A stretch of DNA of 47,203 nucleotides, taken from the NCBI GenBank assembly GCA_013813435.1, contig JACCRS010000216.1:1-47203 (forward strand), read 5' to 3'. Position numbers and translations under genes: made by a program. Origin of the DNA: Gemmatimonadales bacterium. Its GTDB lineage: Bacteria > Gemmatimonadota > Gemmatimonadetes > Gemmatimonadales > GWC2-71-9. Positions 14,244-20,947 of this stretch are shown one piece after another (position 1 is the first letter of the stretch; the number at the start of each line of letters is the position of its first letter). Below the pieces are notes generated by a model. That model saw nothing but the letters and a program-made list of their open reading frames with translations, did no database searches and had not been told where the DNA came from.

Positions 14244-14745
14244 GAGGAAAAGCCTCCACTGGCTGTTTAGGCGCCAGGCGGCGCCACGGGGATTTAGAAC
14301 CGCCGTGAAGCTAAAGTCAACCGAGGGGGCGCGCAGTCAGAAAGAAATGGTGATCCAACGCACAGCACCTTGATCCCGGCTTTCTATACTTGGCCACAGT
14401 GGAAGTGCGGATGGACGGCGACCTGCGAGACGTCCGAAACAGCCCTGAGTCCCCTGCTCTGCGGCCGGATGAGCTGTCTAACCCAAGTTTCCGCTGCTTC
14501 TCCCATCACTACCCCCTTCTCTATATATCTCGCCGGGAACGGGCCTAATCGCCCGTTCCACCCGCCTTCTTTTGAGAGCTCTTGGCTGCTGAACTCGCTC
14601 CCAGTCGTGTGACCCAACCCACAGCAGCGAGTACTCACCAATCTATACTTGCGACGTCTGTGCATTTCAGGCTACCGGCCGCTTCGATTTCTACCGGCCA
14701 TCCTCGAGATCGGCATCCGACTCAACCACACGGGAGATCACGACC

Positions 14746-15225
14746 ATGCCACGAGGCGACAAGTCGTCCTACACCAGCAAGCAGAAGCGGCAAGCCGAGC
14801 ACATCGAAGAAGGCTATGAGAAGCGGGGTAGTTCACGTCGCCAAGCAGAGCGGCGCGCCTGGGCAACCGTGAACAAGGAAGACGGTGGCGGCAAGAAGAG
14901 CGGCTCTGGAAGGGGAAAGAAGAGCACCAAGAGCTCTTCCCGTAAAGGAGGCAAGAAGGGTGGGGCTGCCTCGGGATCGAGGTCCAAGGCCTCGGGCTCG
15001 AGGTCCAAGGCCTCGCGCTCCGCTGCCGCACGCAAGGGCGCCGCGACACGGCGCAGGAAAGCGGCAAGCAGTGGACGCAAGAGCAGCGGAGCCGGCCGTA
15101 AGAAGAGCACCGGAGGATCTCGCAGCAGGTCCACAGCGAGCTCTCGCAGCCGATCGACCTCGGGCCGGAAGAGCAGTGGCAGCAGCCGCAGCAGAAAAAG
15201 CAGCAAGAAGAGCTCGCGCCGCTGA
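14746..15225 (+). CDS. Small highly basic protein: conserved MPRGDKS...AWATVNK domain plus K/R/S-rich tail (family often labelled 'plasmid stabilization protein')
   Basis: SD GGGAGA; recognisable N-terminal motif; low-complexity basic tail. Confidence 0.8.
   Translation: MPRGDKSSYTSKQKRQAEHIEEGYEKRGSSRRQAERRAWATVNKEDGGGKKSGSGRGKKSTKSSSRKGGKKGGAASGSRSKASGSRSKASRSAAARKGAATRRRKAASSGRKSSGAGRKKSTGGSRSRSTASSRSRSTSGRKSSGSSRSRKSSKKSSRR
14968..15015 (+). repeat. 21-bp coding tandem duplication (ASGSRSK x2)
   Basis: gcctcgggatcgaggtccaag gcctcgggctcgaggtccaag gcctcg. Confidence 0.85.
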
Positions 15226-16554: not shown

Positions 16555-17571
16555 TCAGCTTTCTCGACGCACGTCTCGGGCTGGCTTGTCGTCTCGCAGG
16601 CCGAGGAAACGAGGGTGGCGCAGCAGTCCGGCGGATGTCCACTCGGAGAACCCGATCTCGGCTACCAGCTCGGGGCTGACCCACTGAATTTCGCCGGCCG
16701 GCTTGGGTCCCTCCAGGAAAGGCGAGGTGGTGCGGTGAAGCGGAGCCAGCAGGGTGTGCAGAAGCTCGAGGGTCCTGCGATCATATCCGGTGCCCACCTT
16801 ACCCGCGTAGCGCAAAGCCTGCCCTGAGCCCTGCCAAGGGGCGTAGTGACCCACCAGCAGCGCACCGAGTCGCTCGCGCGATCCCTGTGGCGCAGTGTAG
16901 CCGCCGATGACCAGCTCCTGGCGGCGCAGGCACTTGATCTTGAGCCAGTCAGCCGAGCGCGCGCTCACGTAACGCGAATCCGCTCGCTTGGCCATGATTC
17001 CCTCCTCCTCCCGAGCGCACGCCTTTCGAAGCATGGCCGCGGCTCCGGTGGTCTTGTAGCGGCTAAGCCGCAGGACATCATCAAAGGTGACGACGTCCTG
17101 CAGGACGGCTTTCCGCTCGAGCAGCGGCAGACCGGTAAGATCGAGGCCGTCGAAGTACATGCAGTCGAACAGGTAGAGGTACACCGCAACCTGGCTGCGC
17201 CGGGCGCGGACGGGGTCTCGCAACTGCATGCGCTGCTGCAGCCGGGCGAAGCTGGTAATGCCGCGTTTCTCGTCAAAGGCTATGATCTCGCCATCGAGCA
17301 CCGCCTCGCCGTTTACCGACCCGCTCAAGGCTTCCACCAGCTCGGGATAGGCATCGTTTAGCGGCTTCCGATTACGAGAATAGATTCGTACGGAACCGGG
17401 GCTGACATAGATCAACGCCCGCACTCCGTCCAGCTTCGGCTCGTATACCCACTTTCCCGAAATGGGCAATTCCTCGGAGAGCGTCGCCAGCATGGGCGGA
17501 AGCCAGGCGGGAATGGCACGGCGGCGGAGACCTGCTGCTGCAGCTGGGGCAGTGGTCGAGGGGCGAATCAT
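16555..17571 (-). CDS. ligD: NHEJ ATP-dependent DNA ligase (LigD ligase + OB domains, stand-alone)
   Basis: Motif I YEPKLDG, LDGEI, FD, EGIMAK, WLKIK, GKVGTG, LRHPRFLGLRDDK; ATG 17571 overlaps the upstream stop (ATGA). Confidence 0.93.
   Translation of the reverse strand: MIRPSTTAPAAAAGLRRRAIPAWLPPMLATLSEELPISGKWVYEPKLDGVRALIYVSPGSVRIYSRNRKPLNDAYPELVEALSGSVNGEAVLDGEIIAFDEKRGITSFARLQQRMQLRDPVRARRSQVAVYLYLFDCMYFDGLDLTGLPLLERKAVLQDVVTFDDVLRLSRYKTTGAAAMLRKACAREEEGIMAKRADSRYVSARSADWLKIKCLRRQELVIGGYTAPQGSRERLGALLVGHYAPWQGSGQALRYAGKVGTGYDRRTLELLHTLLAPLHRTTSPFLEGPKPAGEIQWVSPELVAEIGFSEWTSAGLLRHPRFLGLRDDKPARDVRRES
16817..16841 (-). repeat. REP-like element inserted in frame in the ligase gene (PWQGSGQA)
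   Basis: Minus strand reads ccccttggcagggctcagggcaggc; a related intergenic copy lies at 40962-40987. Confidence 0.55.
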
Positions 17572-18632
17572 GCAGTCCTCTCTTCCAACAGCTGGGCGAG
17601 GTCCTGCTTGGCTGAAAGAATCTCCGCCCACGGGTCGCCCCGCTCCTCCAGAAGATCCGGCGCCGTACGTAGGGTAAAGTCCGTGGGATAGATCTCCTCC
17701 AATTGCTCCCAGGCCACCGGCATCGAAACGGTCCCGAGCGCGTTCCGGCGGGGCGAAAAGATGGCTGCCAGAGATTTGCCGCGGCTGTTCTGGTTGTAAT
17801 CGAAAAAGATCTTCCCGGTTCGGCGCTCGACCGACCACTCGAGCGTTACCTCCCCAGGCCACTGCTGAAGGGCGTACCGCCCGATGGTCTCGGCGATGCC
17901 GCGAGCAGCATCGTAGTCGAACTTGCGGAGGATCGGCAGATACAGATGCAGCCCGGTCCGACCCGATGTCTTGACGAACGTCTGAAGGCCCAGACCGGTA
18001 AGGAGCTCGCGCAGACGGAGCGCCAGGTCTCGCGTGCGATTGAATGCTCTGCGATGCAGCTCCGGCTCCTCGCCCTTACCCTCGCGCCCGGAATATTCAT
18101 ACGGGTCCAGATCAACCACTACGAAGTCAGGGAAATTGAGCACTGACTTATCCAGGGTGGCTTCAGAGCCCGAGAACTTGCGGCCTTTCCCCTTTGCGTC
18201 TGGTTGAGGATCTATGCGGGAAAACCACGGGTGCAGCTCCAACCCCGCCATCTGCGACAGCCAGAGCAGCGTCGCGAGATTCCCACAGATCAGGTAATCG
18301 CCGTCGCCCTCCTTGTGACTGGAGTAGATCGAGATATTGCGGGCAAAGTCAGGTGGCTCATCCCAATGCTTCTGATAGAAGCTCTTGCCGTTGATTCCAT
18401 CGGGATAGCGGGTGACAAACAGGGGGCGTCCGGCAAGATGGGGCAGCAGCCAGGGAGAGACCCGAGTCATGTATCGCAGCAAATCCCGTTTGGTCAGCGG
18501 ACTGCTGCCCTCAGCGGCAGGCCACAAGACTTTATCGAGATTGGTAACAGGTAGAGCGTGTCCCTCCACATTGAGTACCAAGCGTGGCTTGCGCTCGTCG
18601 AGCTGAGCCAGCACATCGCCAACCTCACTCAT
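17568..18632 (-). CDS. ligD: LigD polymerase (archaeo-eukaryotic primase-polymerase) domain, stand-alone
   Basis: TNLDKVLWP, TKRDLLRY, RYPDG, FYQK, DLDP, KTSGRTGLH, IFFDYNQN, VSMPVAW. Confidence 0.92.
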   Translation of the reverse strand: MSEVGDVLAQLDERKPRLVLNVEGHALPVTNLDKVLWPAAEGSSPLTKRDLLRYMTRVSPWLLPHLAGRPLFVTRYPDGINGKSFYQKHWDEPPDFARNISIYSSHKEGDGDYLICGNLATLLWLSQMAGLELHPWFSRIDPQPDAKGKGRKFSGSEATLDKSVLNFPDFVVVDLDPYEYSGREGKGEEPELHRRAFNRTRDLALRLRELLTGLGLQTFVKTSGRTGLHLYLPILRKFDYDAARGIAETIGRYALQQWPGEVTLEWSVERRTGKIFFDYNQNSRGKSLAAIFSPRRNALGTVSMPVAWEQLEEIYPTDFTLRTAPDLLEERGDPWAEILSAKQDLAQLLEERTA

Positions 18633-19465
18633 CCCACCTTCCGCGTCCGGCGGCGCGCGGGACGGGTCCCAGCGCGGGCCGGCGGTTTGGGCTTGCTGCC
18701 CTTCTTCGCCGCTTCGACGCTTCGCTTCAGCGCTTCGGCCAGATCGATCACCCCGGTGTCTCGGGCGGCTGGTGCACTCACGACCTGCTTGCCTTCGAGC
18801 TTGGCCTCGATGAGCTGCGCTAGCGCCTCTCGATAGGTGTCGCGGTATTCAGAAGGATCGAAGGGCTTCTTCAACAGCTCGATCAGAGTAAAAGCCATGC
18901 CGAGCTCCTTCTCCGACACCTTCACCCGGTCCAGATCGCTGCTCCGTTCCTGCCTGATCTCGTCGGGGTAATACAGTGTCTCCAGCATTATGGTGCCCTT
19001 ATGCGGCCGCAGCACGCAGAGCTGCTCTTTTTTTCTGATGGTAATGCTGGCCGTAGCGCTCAGCTTCTTTTCCTCCAGAGCCTTCAACAGCAGCGCGTAA
19101 GGTTTTTCTGCCCGCTCAGCCGGCTCGAGATAGTAGCTCTTCTCGTAGAAGACCGGATCGATCTCCTGCTCTTCCACAAAGGCGCTCAGCTCGATGGTGT
19201 GCTTGCTCGGAAGCGGCAGCTGCTCGAAGTCCTCTTCAGTCAGCACCACGTACTGACCTTTGGCGAACTCGTATCCCCGTGAAGTCTCGTTCCAGGGCAC
19301 TTCTACCTCATCGGTGGGGCACCAGCGCTTCTGCTGCAGCTTGGACCCGCAGGTTGCGTGAATCAAATTGAACCTGATGTCACGGCTCTCCGTTGCCCCG
19401 AAGAGTTTGACGGGTATGGTCACCATCCCGAAGCTGATCGAACCACTCCAGATTGCCCTCGGCAT
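18629..19465 (-). CDS. ku: Ku protein (NHEJ)
   Basis: MPRAIWSGSISFGMVTIPVKL, RGYE, YYLEP, YPDEIR, VIDLAEALKRS, basic tail; SD GGAGGT before ATG 19465. Confidence 0.96.
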   Translation of the reverse strand: MPRAIWSGSISFGMVTIPVKLFGATESRDIRFNLIHATCGSKLQQKRWCPTDEVEVPWNETSRGYEFAKGQYVVLTEEDFEQLPLPSKHTIELSAFVEEQEIDPVFYEKSYYLEPAERAEKPYALLLKALEEKKLSATASITIRKKEQLCVLRPHKGTIMLETLYYPDEIRQERSSDLDRVKVSEKELGMAFTLIELLKKPFDPSEYRDTYREALAQLIEAKLEGKQVVSAPAARDTGVIDLAEALKRSVEAAKKGSKPKPPARAGTRPARRRTRKVG

Positions 19466-19511
19466 GTGCAGCACCTCCGAATAGGCCCGGAGCCGAACTA
19501 TCCCCCGAGAC

Positions 19512-19613
19512 TTTTCCACAACGGATCGCGTATTGTCCACAGAGTTGTCAACACAACCTGTTGACAAATAATAGCTTACGAAGTTTGATAATCAGGCTGA
19601 TACCAACGGGTTG
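19512..19613. promoter_or_regulatory. Cluster of four DnaA-box-like 9-mers plus two IHF-like sites in an AT-rich patch
   Basis: ttttccaca 19512-20, ttgtccaca 19533-41, ttgtcaaca 19545-53, tgttgacaa 19559-67; IHF-like aaataatagctta 19566-78 and taccaacgggttg 19601-13. Confidence 0.65.
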
Positions 19614-19636
19614 CTGTGGGGCAAGTCACAGGGGTC

Positions 19637-20650
19637 CTACTGTTTCGATGATTTGGCCTCGGAAACAGGTGAGCCACCGATGGTGCGGAGAATTCGCTTC
19701 ATGGCCTGTTTGCCGCTGGAGTCTACCGCCGGGAGTATCAGCTGTTCGTTCTCGAGGGGAACGCCAGGCGTGATAGAGCCGGCGTCGGGGGCAGCCTCGA
19801 TTTCAGATGTTGAGCCGCTCACCGGTGTAAAGTCGAGGGCAGCAGCAACAGGTACGTTTGGTTCAGGCGGGGACACTATCCTGGAGCTCACTGGAACTAC
19901 AATCTTCGCGACCGATGCCGTGCCGCCCGGCGAACGGAGGCCGGGAATCGGAATGGACTGAAGCATTGGCATTACCGCGGCCACCGTGCGAGGAGTGACG
20001 TCTTTCAGTGCCTCGGTTGGCGCCGTGATCAGTTGCCGCGGCGTGCGGGGACGCGCGGATACGTCCGATGCCGACGTCGATGTGCCCGACACCACCAGCT
20101 GCGCACAGGCCACCATCACCGCGCCGCCCAGCGCGACCCGAAGGTAGTGCTGGGGCTTACTGCGGCGGCGCGAGCCTCTGGCCTGCACCGGCCCCGCCAC
20201 TTTTGCCGGCTCCACCATGCGGGGAGCTGCTGCCACCGGTACTGGCGTGGCCATTCGCTTCGGGTTCCTGCGAGCCGGCTCCGTCGGAGGCTCCGCTGCC
20301 CGCGGTGAGCTCGGCTTGGGTTCAGGCCATGCGGTGAGCGCCGCCTGTGTAGCAGCCTGCCGGGTTGAGGGTGCCGGGGTCACAGCTGGAGCGGACTGCG
20401 GCTGACCCTCACCCAGCTTCAACGCCGAGAGTGGGGCTACCGGCGGGCCAGCGACAAGATCCGCCTGGGTCAGCGGCATCGAGAGCGCGATCTTGTAGTG
20501 CGGATGGAACTGGATGGGCAGCCACTTGCTCGTAGCGTTGTGATAGATGCGTGCGCGGGAAGTCACGACCTTCCGTCGGATCGCGACAGCCAGCTCTTCT
20601 ATCGACCGAAACGCGGTCTCTTCGCCGGGCGAAAGCTCGATGCGATACAT
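19637..20650 (-). CDS. Hypothetical single-pass membrane protein with small N-terminal globular (GYF_2-like) domain and Pro/Ala-rich linkers
   Basis: SD GAGGT before ATG 20650; ordered N-terminal ~55 aa; TM VALGGAVMVACAQLVV. Confidence 0.7.
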   Translation of the reverse strand: MYRIELSPGEETAFRSIEELAVAIRRKVVTSRARIYHNATSKWLPIQFHPHYKIALSMPLTQADLVAGPPVAPLSALKLGEGQPQSAPAVTPAPSTRQAATQAALTAWPEPKPSSPRAAEPPTEPARRNPKRMATPVPVAAAPRMVEPAKVAGPVQARGSRRRSKPQHYLRVALGGAVMVACAQLVVSGTSTSASDVSARPRTPRQLITAPTEALKDVTPRTVAAVMPMLQSIPIPGLRSPGGTASVAKIVVPVSSRIVSPPEPNVPVAAALDFTPVSGSTSEIEAAPDAGSITPGVPLENEQLILPAVDSSGKQAMKRILRTIGGSPVSEAKSSKQ

Positions 20651-20947
20651 ACACACCTCAACGGGCGGGGAAGTGTGCGAGGGGTGCTGAGGTAGTTCAT
20701 CGCATGCGATTTTCGTGCGCGGCGTCTATGCATTTTCGTTCATGACGGCCTGACAAGCGGTGGGGGGATGCAAAGAGTGTGACCTGATAAGACTGGCGTG
20801 GTGGCGCTATAGGAAATCCCGCTGCGATCAAATGGTTGCGAGCCTTCCCACAACCCGAAGAGCAGGTGCTCTTTTCTGCAGCTTGCCGGGACGGCAGAGC
20901 GGCTGAATTTTGGGAGGGGGGGCGAAGGTTTTGCGAACTCTGGTGGA

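What the first reader, a model, noticed from the sequence alone, without database searches (positions are those of the whole stretch)
19499..19630. DnaA-box and IHF-like site cluster directly upstream of Ku
Seen: four 9-mers related to TTATCCACA within 56 bp: TTTTCCACA and TTGTCCACA (1 mismatch each), and TTGTCAACA with its perfect inverted copy 5 bp away (2 mismatches). An AT-rich patch follows with two WATCAAN4TTR-like sites (2 and 1 mismatches). The cluster starts 47 bp from the Ku ATG, and no dnaA, dnaN or gidA is in the window. Established: DnaA boxes plus IHF sites characterise E. coli oriC, datA and DARS2, and DnaA is also a transcription regulator. Inference: either DnaA ties NHEJ expression to replication state, which would be a new regulatory link, or this is a dnaA-unlinked origin or datA/DARS-like locus. 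Gene orientation also flips from mostly minus to mostly plus about 1.2 kb away.
Basis: partly seen in the sequence, partly recalled or inferred. Interest (0 to 1): 0.72.

Follow-up and report, generated by a model that had tools for sequence, protein, structure and literature searches.

The report
DnaA switch on bacterial end-joining genes
A conserved cluster of predicted binding sites for the replication-starting protein DnaA sits just in front of the Ku DNA end-joining genes of a group of Gemmatimonadales bacteria and likely holds this error-prone repair route down while cells are copying their DNA, a link between repair choice and replication state that has not been tested.

Summary
The four DnaA-like boxes are real, the best cluster in this genome (0 of 57 simulated genomes match it) and conserved in 71 of 80 genomes of the genus. 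It is not an origin: a DnaA-trio origin sits between dnaA and dnaN, 130-385 kb away in 8 genomes. The boxes lie between a predicted CRP-family promoter and the ku start codon. Boxes I-III have exactly the E. coli DARS geometry (inverted pair 5 bp apart, tandem box 3 bp on). But in four other genera the ku operon keeps only tandem boxes, and the cluster erodes when ku is lost (6 of 8 sister comparisons, 2 ties) while the promoter site stays. Best reading (0.6): a DnaA/IHF operator that likely represses or blocks ku-ligD transcription in growing cells. An added DARS role is possible (0.15). A co-varying hairpin around box IV is unexplained. No binding or expression data. The scan noted DnaA boxes beside ku-ligD once before, in another genome.

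The parts
19637..20656 (-). Upstream neighbour 'gene X' (339 aa, no Pfam or NCBIfam family); not part of the element's function
   Evidence: its orthologues without a ligase operon downstream have no boxes
19615..19630 (-). CRP/FNR-family-like site TGTGA-N6-CCACA, predicted class II activator site centred about 41.5 bp before the predicted start
   Evidence: GTGA invariant and CAC invariant in 66 of 66 homologues, 46-49 bp from box I (47 in 55); palindromic CGTGA-N6-TCACC variants; a CRP-family gene with SRETVSR helix in the genome
19588..19593 (-). Predicted -10 hexamer (GATTAT; genus pattern nAWWAT), 21 bp after the CRP-like site; predicted start near 19581
   Evidence: A at position 2 in 52 of 55 and T at position 6 in 51 of 55 equally spaced homologues; inferred, no RNA data
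19554..19578 (-). IHF-like region TAAG-N17-TTR; 13-mer core 19554-19566 overlaps box I
   Evidence: 1 mismatch here. TTR lay in unconstrained positions of the search pattern yet is present in 66 of 66 loci of this type versus 1 of 29 unrelated matches. IHF-beta-like gene below curated cut-off
19559..19567 (-). DnaA-like box I (TTGTCAACA on the ku strand), head-to-head with box II at 5 bp; seen intact only in this genus
   Evidence: eroded or absent in other genera
19545..19553 (+). DnaA-like box II (TTGTCAACA)
   Evidence: canonical TGTGGACAA at this position in L367 and G255
19533..19541 (+). DnaA-like box III (TTGTCCACA), 3 bp from box II: a double DnaA box
   Evidence: double-box rule from PMC11317965
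19512..19520 (+). DnaA box IV (TTTTCCACA), two helical turns from box III; lies in the loop of a predicted GC-rich hairpin on the ku strand
   Evidence: spacer mostly 11-12 bp; flank complementarity above permutation
19474..19478 (-). Shine-Dalgarno-like GGAGG
   Evidence: sequence
18629..19465 (-). ku, bacterial NHEJ Ku (278 aa)
   Evidence: TIGR02772 297 bits, over cut-off
17568..18632 (-). LigD primase-polymerase domain gene
   Evidence: PF21686; TIGR02778 213 bits, just under cut-off
16555..17571 (-). LigD ligase domain gene with intact EPKLDG motif
   Evidence: TIGR02779 278 bits
14608..14649 (+). Second copy of the CRP-like site plus TATACT, before a 159-aa basic protein of no family; a third copy at 14349-14390
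   Evidence: best matrix hit in the genome; same pair in several relatives

Best explanation
The cluster is likely a DnaA operator, with an IHF-like site, in the predicted 5' leader of the ku-polymerase-ligase operon, and it would damp non-homologous end joining while DnaA is abundant in growing cells. Shown by sequence comparison: the layout (CRP-like site, -10-like hexamer, IHF-like site, boxes I-IV, Shine-Dalgarno, ku), its fixed spacings, its movement with the operon, and its erosion after ku loss. Inferred: a CRP-family activator at about -41.5 starts transcription near 19581 under starvation or stress. DnaA binds the double box II/III cooperatively and box IV two turns further on, at about +15 to +70, where it would hinder promoter escape or block elongation. 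IHF binding over the start region and box I would tune or compete with this. When replication stops and DnaA falls or is displaced, Ku and LigD would be made. The logic: Ku is useful when no sister chromosome exists and harmful at broken forks. The sign (repression rather than activation) is inferred from position only, at about 70%.
For: Conserved in 71 of 80 genus genomes, reversed-pattern control 0 of 80. Distance to the CRP-like site is nearly fixed, while distance to the ATG varies from 15 to 94 bp. In four other genera the same operon, in other neighbourhoods, carries tandem TGTGGAnAA boxes, mostly 2-3 bp apart, before ku: 5 of 6 assessable orthologues. Distant ku paralogues: 0 of 3. Metagenome ku relatives: 28 of 29 at >=67% identity versus 2 of 40 below that. 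Boxes I-III are perfect in 54 of 60 ku-intact genomes versus 2 of 15 ku-lost ones. Across independent losses on a tree the cluster is worse in 6 of 8 sister comparisons, tied in 2, better in none, while the CRP-like site is kept in 11 of 13 ku-lost loci. Box spectrum TT[A/G/T]TC[C/A]ACA matches boxes just downstream of dnaA in two other Gemmatimonadota families and beside dnaA, dnaN and a plasmid repA elsewhere. The genome's DnaA keeps R399, D433, H434, H439, K443 (residue roles recalled). DnaA prefers double boxes 2-3 bp apart and regulates repair genes (PMC11317965); it represses uvrB, recN and dinJ (PMC6015884).
Against: No binding, start-site or expression data. Boxes II-V are kept before a ligase-like gene lacking the catalytic lysine in two other genera, with no ku in that unit (G255, G308, G456, G467, G474, G151), so the link is not strictly to ku. 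Two of eight ku losses show no erosion. Box IV sits in a hairpin whose flanks co-vary, which a plain DNA operator does not explain. Boxes I and II carry A at the normally invariant position 6, and DnaA has P423V and T435S. This genome's origin boxes are far more degenerate than these, so a titration role is also plausible. Kin are not independent; Fisher p = 2e-8 overstates, and the sign test on 6 of 6 untied pairs gives only about 0.03.
Confidence: 0.6

Rival explanations
1. DARS-type locus: ADP-DnaA forms a head-to-head dimer on boxes I/II, helped by box III, releases ADP and is recharged with ATP. IHF would switch it by occluding box I. It may act in addition to the operator role, as DARS1 does at uvrB.
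For: Identical geometry to E. coli DARS1 (TTATCCACT-5-TGTGGATAA-3-TGTGTATTA) and DARS2 (TTATTCACC-5-TGTGGATAG-3-TGTGAAGAA), read from NC_000913.3. The 5-bp spacing is functionally important (PMC6868365). Away from oriC, and upstream of a repair gene like DARS1 (uvrB) and DARS2 (mutH). Spacers intact in 60 of 60 ku-intact genomes.
Against: Box I is missing in the other genera that keep II-V. Its sequence is largely forced by the overlapping IHF consensus. The core is deleted or broken in near-complete genomes G004, G242, G024, G064. The same geometry occurs at origins and a plasmid repA. DnaA has N at Gln208 and M at Leu290. No Hda over cut-off. The IHF site overlaps the core rather than lying apart from it as in DARS2 (PMC4245941).
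Confidence: 0.15
2. Origin-proximal DnaA titration or inactivation site (datA-like, or like the Bacillus/Streptomyces box clusters) that happens to sit in the ku leader.
For: Strongest DnaA site in the assembly. Lies 130-385 kb (about 4-8% of the genome) from dnaA, always on the same side, in 8 genomes. IHF-like site present. Boxes kept before a dead ligase gene without ku.
Against: The IHF-like site is not flanked by co-oriented boxes as in datA. The strict pattern was found in 0 of 95 genomes of the sister family. It moves with the operon and decays with ku.
Confidence: 0.1
3. RNA-level leader element: UGUGGA(A/U/C)AA repeats, one shown in a hairpin loop, bound by an RNA-binding regulator (CsrA-like, or Ku/LigD itself as feedback).
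For: The repeats read TGTGGA on the mRNA strand in every case. Flanks of box IV pair better within a genome than between genomes (-12.6 versus -11.0 +/- 0.3 kcal/mol, 300 permutations). Two genomes of another genus have 12-bp stems that differ by compensatory changes. GGA is unpaired in 42 of 67 folds. Feedback by Ku would also explain decay after ku loss.
Against: CsrA found in 1 of 5 genomes and not in this one. The repeats lack the A of the ANGGA CsrA motif (recalled). RNAalifold found no consensus pairs in 58 sequences. Arrays of four boxes 2-3 bp apart (G539, G255) and the fixed 20-21 bp period fit DNA phasing. No Rfam family.
Confidence: 0.08
4. Operator of an unrelated dimeric factor recognising TTRTCAACA-N5-TGTTGAYAA.
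For: Both halves carry A6; the palindrome is near-invariant in the genus.
Against: Single copy in the genome, so no regulon. The left half is lost in four genera while tandem boxes stay. The right half reverts to a canonical box in L367 and G255. The halves do not change in step.
Confidence: 0.05
5. A dnaA-unlinked replication origin.
For: Best box cluster in the assembly, IHF-like site, modest AT-rich patch.
Against: A conserved CTACTAC(N)NCTACTA trio run plus AT-rich stretch lies between dnaA and dnaN in G000 and 8 of 9 relatives displayed; none at the element. Cumulative skew minimum at 1.46-1.47 Mb in G158, next to dnaA at 1.45 Mb, not at the element at 1.59 Mb. Deleted in G004 and G538.
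Confidence: 0.02

Closest known systems
E. coli uvrB promoter region with DARS1 (PMC6015884; PMC6868365)
   Same: Three-box core with the same orientations and 5/3-bp spacers, upstream of a DNA-repair gene, overlapping a promoter region that DnaA represses.
   Different: Here the target is NHEJ, the co-regulator site is CRP-like rather than LexA, an IHF-like site overlaps box I, a fourth box follows, and the phylum is Gemmatimonadota. The inverted box is not kept across the family.
E. coli DARS2 upstream of mutH (PMC4245941)
   Same: Same core geometry; IHF site involved; upstream of a repair gene.
   Different: DARS2's IHF and Fis sites lie apart from the core. Here the IHF-like site overlaps box I, Fis was not tested, and the locus is dispensable in ku-less relatives.
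E. coli DnaA regulon double boxes (polA, purH, nrdA, nrdD, rpoH; PMC11317965)
   Same: Pair of co-oriented boxes 3 bp apart upstream of a DNA-metabolism gene.
   Different: No NHEJ gene in that regulon (E. coli lacks ku; recalled). Here it is the only strong double box in the genome.
Stress-induced NHEJ promoters: RpoE2/EcfG in Sinorhizobium, SigG in Bacillus (PMC6379672)
   Same: ku transcription tied to a stress or starvation regulator; the CRP-like site is shared with a nearby small basic-protein gene.
   Different: Those cases describe activation by sigma factors only; no replication-initiator input is described in the passages read.
Extra-origin DnaA-box clusters of B. subtilis and S. coelicolor, and datA (PMC5742627)
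   Same: Strong box cluster within a few per cent of the chromosome from oriC.
   Different: This one is patchy in the phylum, moves with one operon and decays with ku.

Membership tests
DARS (DnaA-reactivating sequence) | Boxes I and II inverted, 5 bp apart; box III co-oriented with II, 3 bp on | tested here: met
   against E. coli DARS1 and DARS2; 71 of 80 genus genomes
DARS (DnaA-reactivating sequence) | Located away from oriC | tested here: met
   130-385 kb from dnaA in 8 genomes
DARS (DnaA-reactivating sequence) | Core kept independently of neighbouring genes | tested here: not met
   erodes or is deleted with ku loss; box I absent in other genera
DARS (DnaA-reactivating sequence) | DnaA Gln208 and Leu290 for ADP release | tested here: not met
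   N190 and M273 at those positions; effect of the substitutions unknown
DARS (DnaA-reactivating sequence) | Promotes ADP dissociation from DnaA | not testable with these tools
   needs an in vitro assay
DARS2 subtype | Separate IHF and Fis sites at set distances from the core | tested here: not met
   IHF-like site overlaps box I; Fis not searched
datA | IHF site between co-oriented DnaA boxes | tested here: not met
   no box beyond the IHF-like site in the alignment
oriC | DnaA-trios next to a box pair, then AT-rich DNA (PMC8287927) | tested here: not met
   trio run at dnaA-dnaN, none at the element
oriC | GC-skew minimum at the site | tested here: not met
   minimum near dnaA in a 306-kb stretch of G158; skew is weak
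DnaA-regulated promoter | Double DnaA box spaced 2-3 bp upstream of the gene | tested here: met
DnaA-regulated promoter | Cognate DnaA with a standard box-reading domain IV | tested here: met
   (R399, D433, H434, H439, K443 kept; P423V, T435S)
DnaA-regulated promoter | DnaA binding and DnaA-dependent change in transcription | not testable with these tools
   no ChIP, footprint or RNA data available
Class II CRP-family promoter | TGTGA-N6-TCACA-like site 21 bp before a -10 hexamer, plus a cognate factor | tested here: inconclusive
   spacing and factor present; start site unmapped; -41.5 rule recalled
CsrA/RsmA target leader | CsrA gene present and ANGGA loops | tested here: not met
   CsrA in 1 of 5 genomes, not this one; loops read GUGGA

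The most novel reading that the evidence does not exclude
The leader is a two-way coupling device. DnaA occupancy gates Ku/LigD production, giving a bacterial version of cell-cycle-dependent choice between end joining and recombination. The same boxes I-III also act as the first DARS outside Proteobacteria, with IHF toggling box I and ku transcription running through it.
Probability: 0.15. Interest if true: 0.85.

Novelty: new variant of a known kind. Interest (0 to 1): 0.6.

Why it matters
Bacterial NHEJ is known to rise in stationary phase and stress, and the regulators named in the passages I read are stress sigma factors (PMC6379672). How cells keep Ku away from breaks during replication is described there as debated. 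A DnaA operator on ku-ligD would be a direct replication-state input into repair pathway choice. It can be tested at once although the genus is known here only from metagenome assemblies: E. coli has DnaA, IHF and CRP, so a 170-bp reporter fusion and standard footprint and ADP-release assays answer both the operator and the DARS question. My searches found no paper on it, but the library lacks most subscription journals.

Tried and rejected
Origin: rejected (trios and skew minimum at dnaA-dnaN). Link to gene X: rejected; its orthologues without a ligase operon have no boxes, and in G255 another gene lies between gene X and the boxes. Sigma-70 consensus scan gave one site on the opposite strand, with 0.4 expected by chance. 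Rfam: no match over threshold in 14-21 kb. RNAalifold on box IV flanks: no consensus pairs, probably because the register shifts. CsrA: not found in this genome. Hda: none over cut-off. XerC/D dif reading of the palindrome: rejected by eye, and the genome's one dif-like site is elsewhere. A wider DnaA regulon in this genome: not found, 3 double-box candidates only. Weak model hits in the sister family are other box clusters (after parB; before an ATP-grasp-like gene), not this layout. DARS paper searches with four terms gave 0 hits. Fujimitsu 2009, with its list of DARS candidates in other species, is not held, so I cannot say whether it lists non-proteobacterial cases. The 1989 paper on orientation-dependent DnaA roadblock was not retrieved and is not used as evidence. 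ku promoters of other phyla were not surveyed beyond the 40 metagenome outgroup loci. No structure or complex prediction was needed.

Full report
Observation. The four 9-mers are at 19512, 19533, 19545 and 19559 as stated. They form the top TTATCCACA cluster of the 2.86-Mb, 255-contig assembly, which has no perfect box at all. A cluster of four boxes within 60 bp, two of them with at most one mismatch, occurs once in the genome and in 0 of 57 simulated genomes. Downstream on the minus strand lie ku (TIGR02772 over cut-off), a LigD polymerase gene and a LigD ligase gene. Upstream lies a gene of no family. Record titles of matching loci place the genus in Gemmatimonadales.

Conservation and anatomy. 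All 27 same-genus loci first aligned (25 with the ku orthologue, 2 with a ku remnant) carry the element. In the whole genus sample the I-II-III pattern with up to 3 mismatches is in 71 of 80 genomes and the reversed control in 0 of 80 (one of the 71, G508, is unpublished and is used in no other count). On the ku strand the order is: TGTGA-N6-CCACA; 21 bp; nAWWAT; about 10 bp; TAAG; box I; 5 bp; box II; 3 bp; box III; 11-12 bp; box IV; 15-94 bp; ATG. The first site is 46-49 bp from box I in all 66 GTDB homologues, 47 bp in 55. That spacing fits a class II CRP-family promoter with the site at -41.5 (rule recalled), which puts the start near 19581 and all boxes in the leader. The genome has one CRP-family gene over cut-off, with SRETVSR against E. 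coli's SRETVGR. The same site, followed by TATACT, occurs twice before a small basic-protein gene at 14746, so it is a separate module. The IHF consensus (recalled) is met over box I. Its TTR part was unconstrained in my pattern yet is present in 66 of 66 such loci and 1 of 29 unrelated matches. The IHF-beta-like gene scores below the curated cut-off.

Not the origin. Between dnaA and dnaN, G000 and 8 of 9 relatives displayed carry degenerate boxes, a CTA-repeat trio run and an AT-rich stretch (for the ninth my anchor matched inside dnaA). This is the basal unwinding layout of PMC8287927 (passages). No trio run is at the element. In 8 of 14 genomes checked, dnaA and the locus share a contig. 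They are 130-385 kb apart and the operon always points towards dnaA. In 306 kb of G158 the weak cumulative skew is lowest at 1.46-1.47 Mb, beside dnaA, not at the element.

DARS geometry. E. coli DARS1 and DARS2, read from NC_000913.3, have box I forward, 5 bp, box II reverse, 3 bp, box III reverse, upstream of uvrB and mutH. The window has the same geometry. The 5-bp head-to-head pair is what releases ADP, and Gln208 is needed (PMC6868365, passages). DARS-like cores are described for proteobacteria (PMC10380432, PMC4245941, PMC5742627; passages). But geometry alone is not diagnostic. An exact scan of GTDB gave 95 loci: 66 are this ku locus and 29 are others, among them sites beside dnaA, between dnaA and dnaN, between a recF-family gene and gyrB, and beside a plasmid repA. 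That supports DnaA as the ligand and weakens DARS as the function. The genome's DnaA has Asn and Met at Gln208 and Leu290, and no Hda passes cut-off.

The boxes follow the operon. In 401 genomes across the phylum the strict pattern hit 24: 19 of this genus, 1 of a sister genus and 4 others, two of them just downstream of dnaA. The ku orthologue is similarly restricted. Where it occurs in four other genera, in other neighbourhoods, 5 of 6 assessable copies have tandem TGTGGAnAA boxes before ku. Four of the five also keep the CRP-like site and the TAAG-TTR frame, but none has the inverted box I; two have arrays of four boxes 2-3 bp apart. The sixth lies inside another operon, and a seventh is at a contig edge. 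Three distant ku paralogues have no double box. Of 80 metagenome loci, 69 were tallied (6 dropped for short upstream DNA, 5 for partial matches). Double boxes occur in 28 of 29 at >=67% identity, the miss having almost no upstream DNA, and in 2 of 40 below that, both reversed and about 250 bp away. DnaA prefers such pairs in vivo (PMC11317965, parts 1-2 of 4 read).

Erosion after ku loss. Of the 80 genus genomes, 60 have ku, 15 have lost it with the locus assembled, and 5 could not be scored (4 missing or at contig ends, 1 unpublished). Boxes I-III are perfect in 54 of 60 versus 2 of 15, and both of those two have box IV mutated (Fisher 2e-8, inflated by kinship). A tree of 49 rows on 323 columns from the start of gene X (short, partly unresolved) scatters the losses over about nine places. 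In eight informative sister comparisons the cluster is worse in six and tied in two. The CRP-like site survives in 11 of 13 ku-lost loci scored, including G004, where the boxes are deleted outright. Against a strict tie to ku: six genomes of two other genera keep boxes II-V before a ligase-like gene that lacks the catalytic lysine.

An unexplained layer. The variable flanks of box IV pair better within a genome than across genomes (-12.6 versus -11.0 +/- 0.3 kcal/mol). A simpler pair count gave 4.69 against 4.40, with a permutation maximum of 4.73. Two genomes of another genus have 12-bp stems differing by compensatory changes. An alignment fold found no common pairs. CsrA is missing from 4 of 5 genomes tested. 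The hairpin may help pause or stabilise the transcript; an RNA-binding regulator is kept as a minor rival.

Mechanism. Most likely a CRP-family factor activates the operon under starvation or stress, and DnaA on boxes II-IV, with IHF over the start region, restrains it in growing cells (0.6). The layout, co-movement and erosion are shown; binding, start site and sign are inferred. The nearest precedent is uvrB, where DARS1 overlaps a DnaA-repressed promoter (PMC6015884, passages). Known NHEJ regulators in the passages read are RpoE2 and SigG (PMC6379672; PMC12448304 passages add nothing on DnaA and ku; PMC12371093 passages concern titration). Searches found no report of DnaA control of ku or of this locus; Fujimitsu 2009 and its supplement were not available. 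An earlier scan note reports a conserved DnaA-box region beside ku-ligD in another genome; I could not check it.

Verdict. A real, conserved regulatory element. It works like a DnaA-regulated repair promoter and resembles a DARS core, but should not be filed as a DARS, datA or oriC. New variant of a known kind; interest 0.6.

Noticed in passing
window 14349-14390 and 14608-14649 (+), gene 14746-15225: Two tandem CRP-like sites each followed 20 bp later by CTATACT, before a 159-aa basic protein of no family. The stretch between the two sites is strongly conserved in relatives and could be a small RNA or leader; no Rfam match.
   Followed up: partly
L248, L288, L256, L257, L299, L077 (G255, G308, G456, G467, G474, G151): LigD-ligase-like genes lacking the catalytic lysine (EPRLEG, EPLLRG, EPRLAG and similar instead of EPKLDG) that keep the DnaA-box leader; G255 also has a normal ku operon with its own box array.
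   Followed up: partly
G000:C97:23558-23650: The genome's only dif-like site lies directly beside three TGTGG-type repeats of 10-bp period and an IHF-like 13-mer, between converging genes.
   Followed up: no
G000:C118:102-2087: A 662-aa protein with two DnaA-type ATPase domains and no match noted for a DNA-binding domain, at the head of a chemotaxis-like gene cluster.
   Followed up: no
L150, L161, L173, L186, L192, L194, L202, L214, L217 (Advenella and relatives); L179, L180, L216; L212: The same inverted-pair-plus-tandem box core occurs between typA and ppk2 in Advenella, and upstream of a phosphate-binding-protein gene in other betaproteobacteria: candidate DARS-like loci.
   Followed up: no
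L078, L079, L082 (G124, G088, G072); L081, L083 (G161, G154): In the sister family, strong DnaA-box clusters with IHF-like sites lie just after parB, or between an ATP-grasp-like gene and a small gene: candidate origin parts or titration sites.
   Followed up: no
L156: A record titled Acidobacteriota carries the whole Gemmatimonadales locus (gene X, element, ku at 77%): misbinning, mislabel or transfer.
   Followed up: no
G030:C55 and G030:C400: Two copies of the element plus ku in one assembly (contamination 4%).
   Followed up: no
G000:C21:11972, C37:8573, C236:19370, C254:2906: TTGTGAA-N4-TTCACA palindromes, one upstream of a gene that looks like the Rex repressor (name recalled): likely a Rex regulon.
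   Followed up: no
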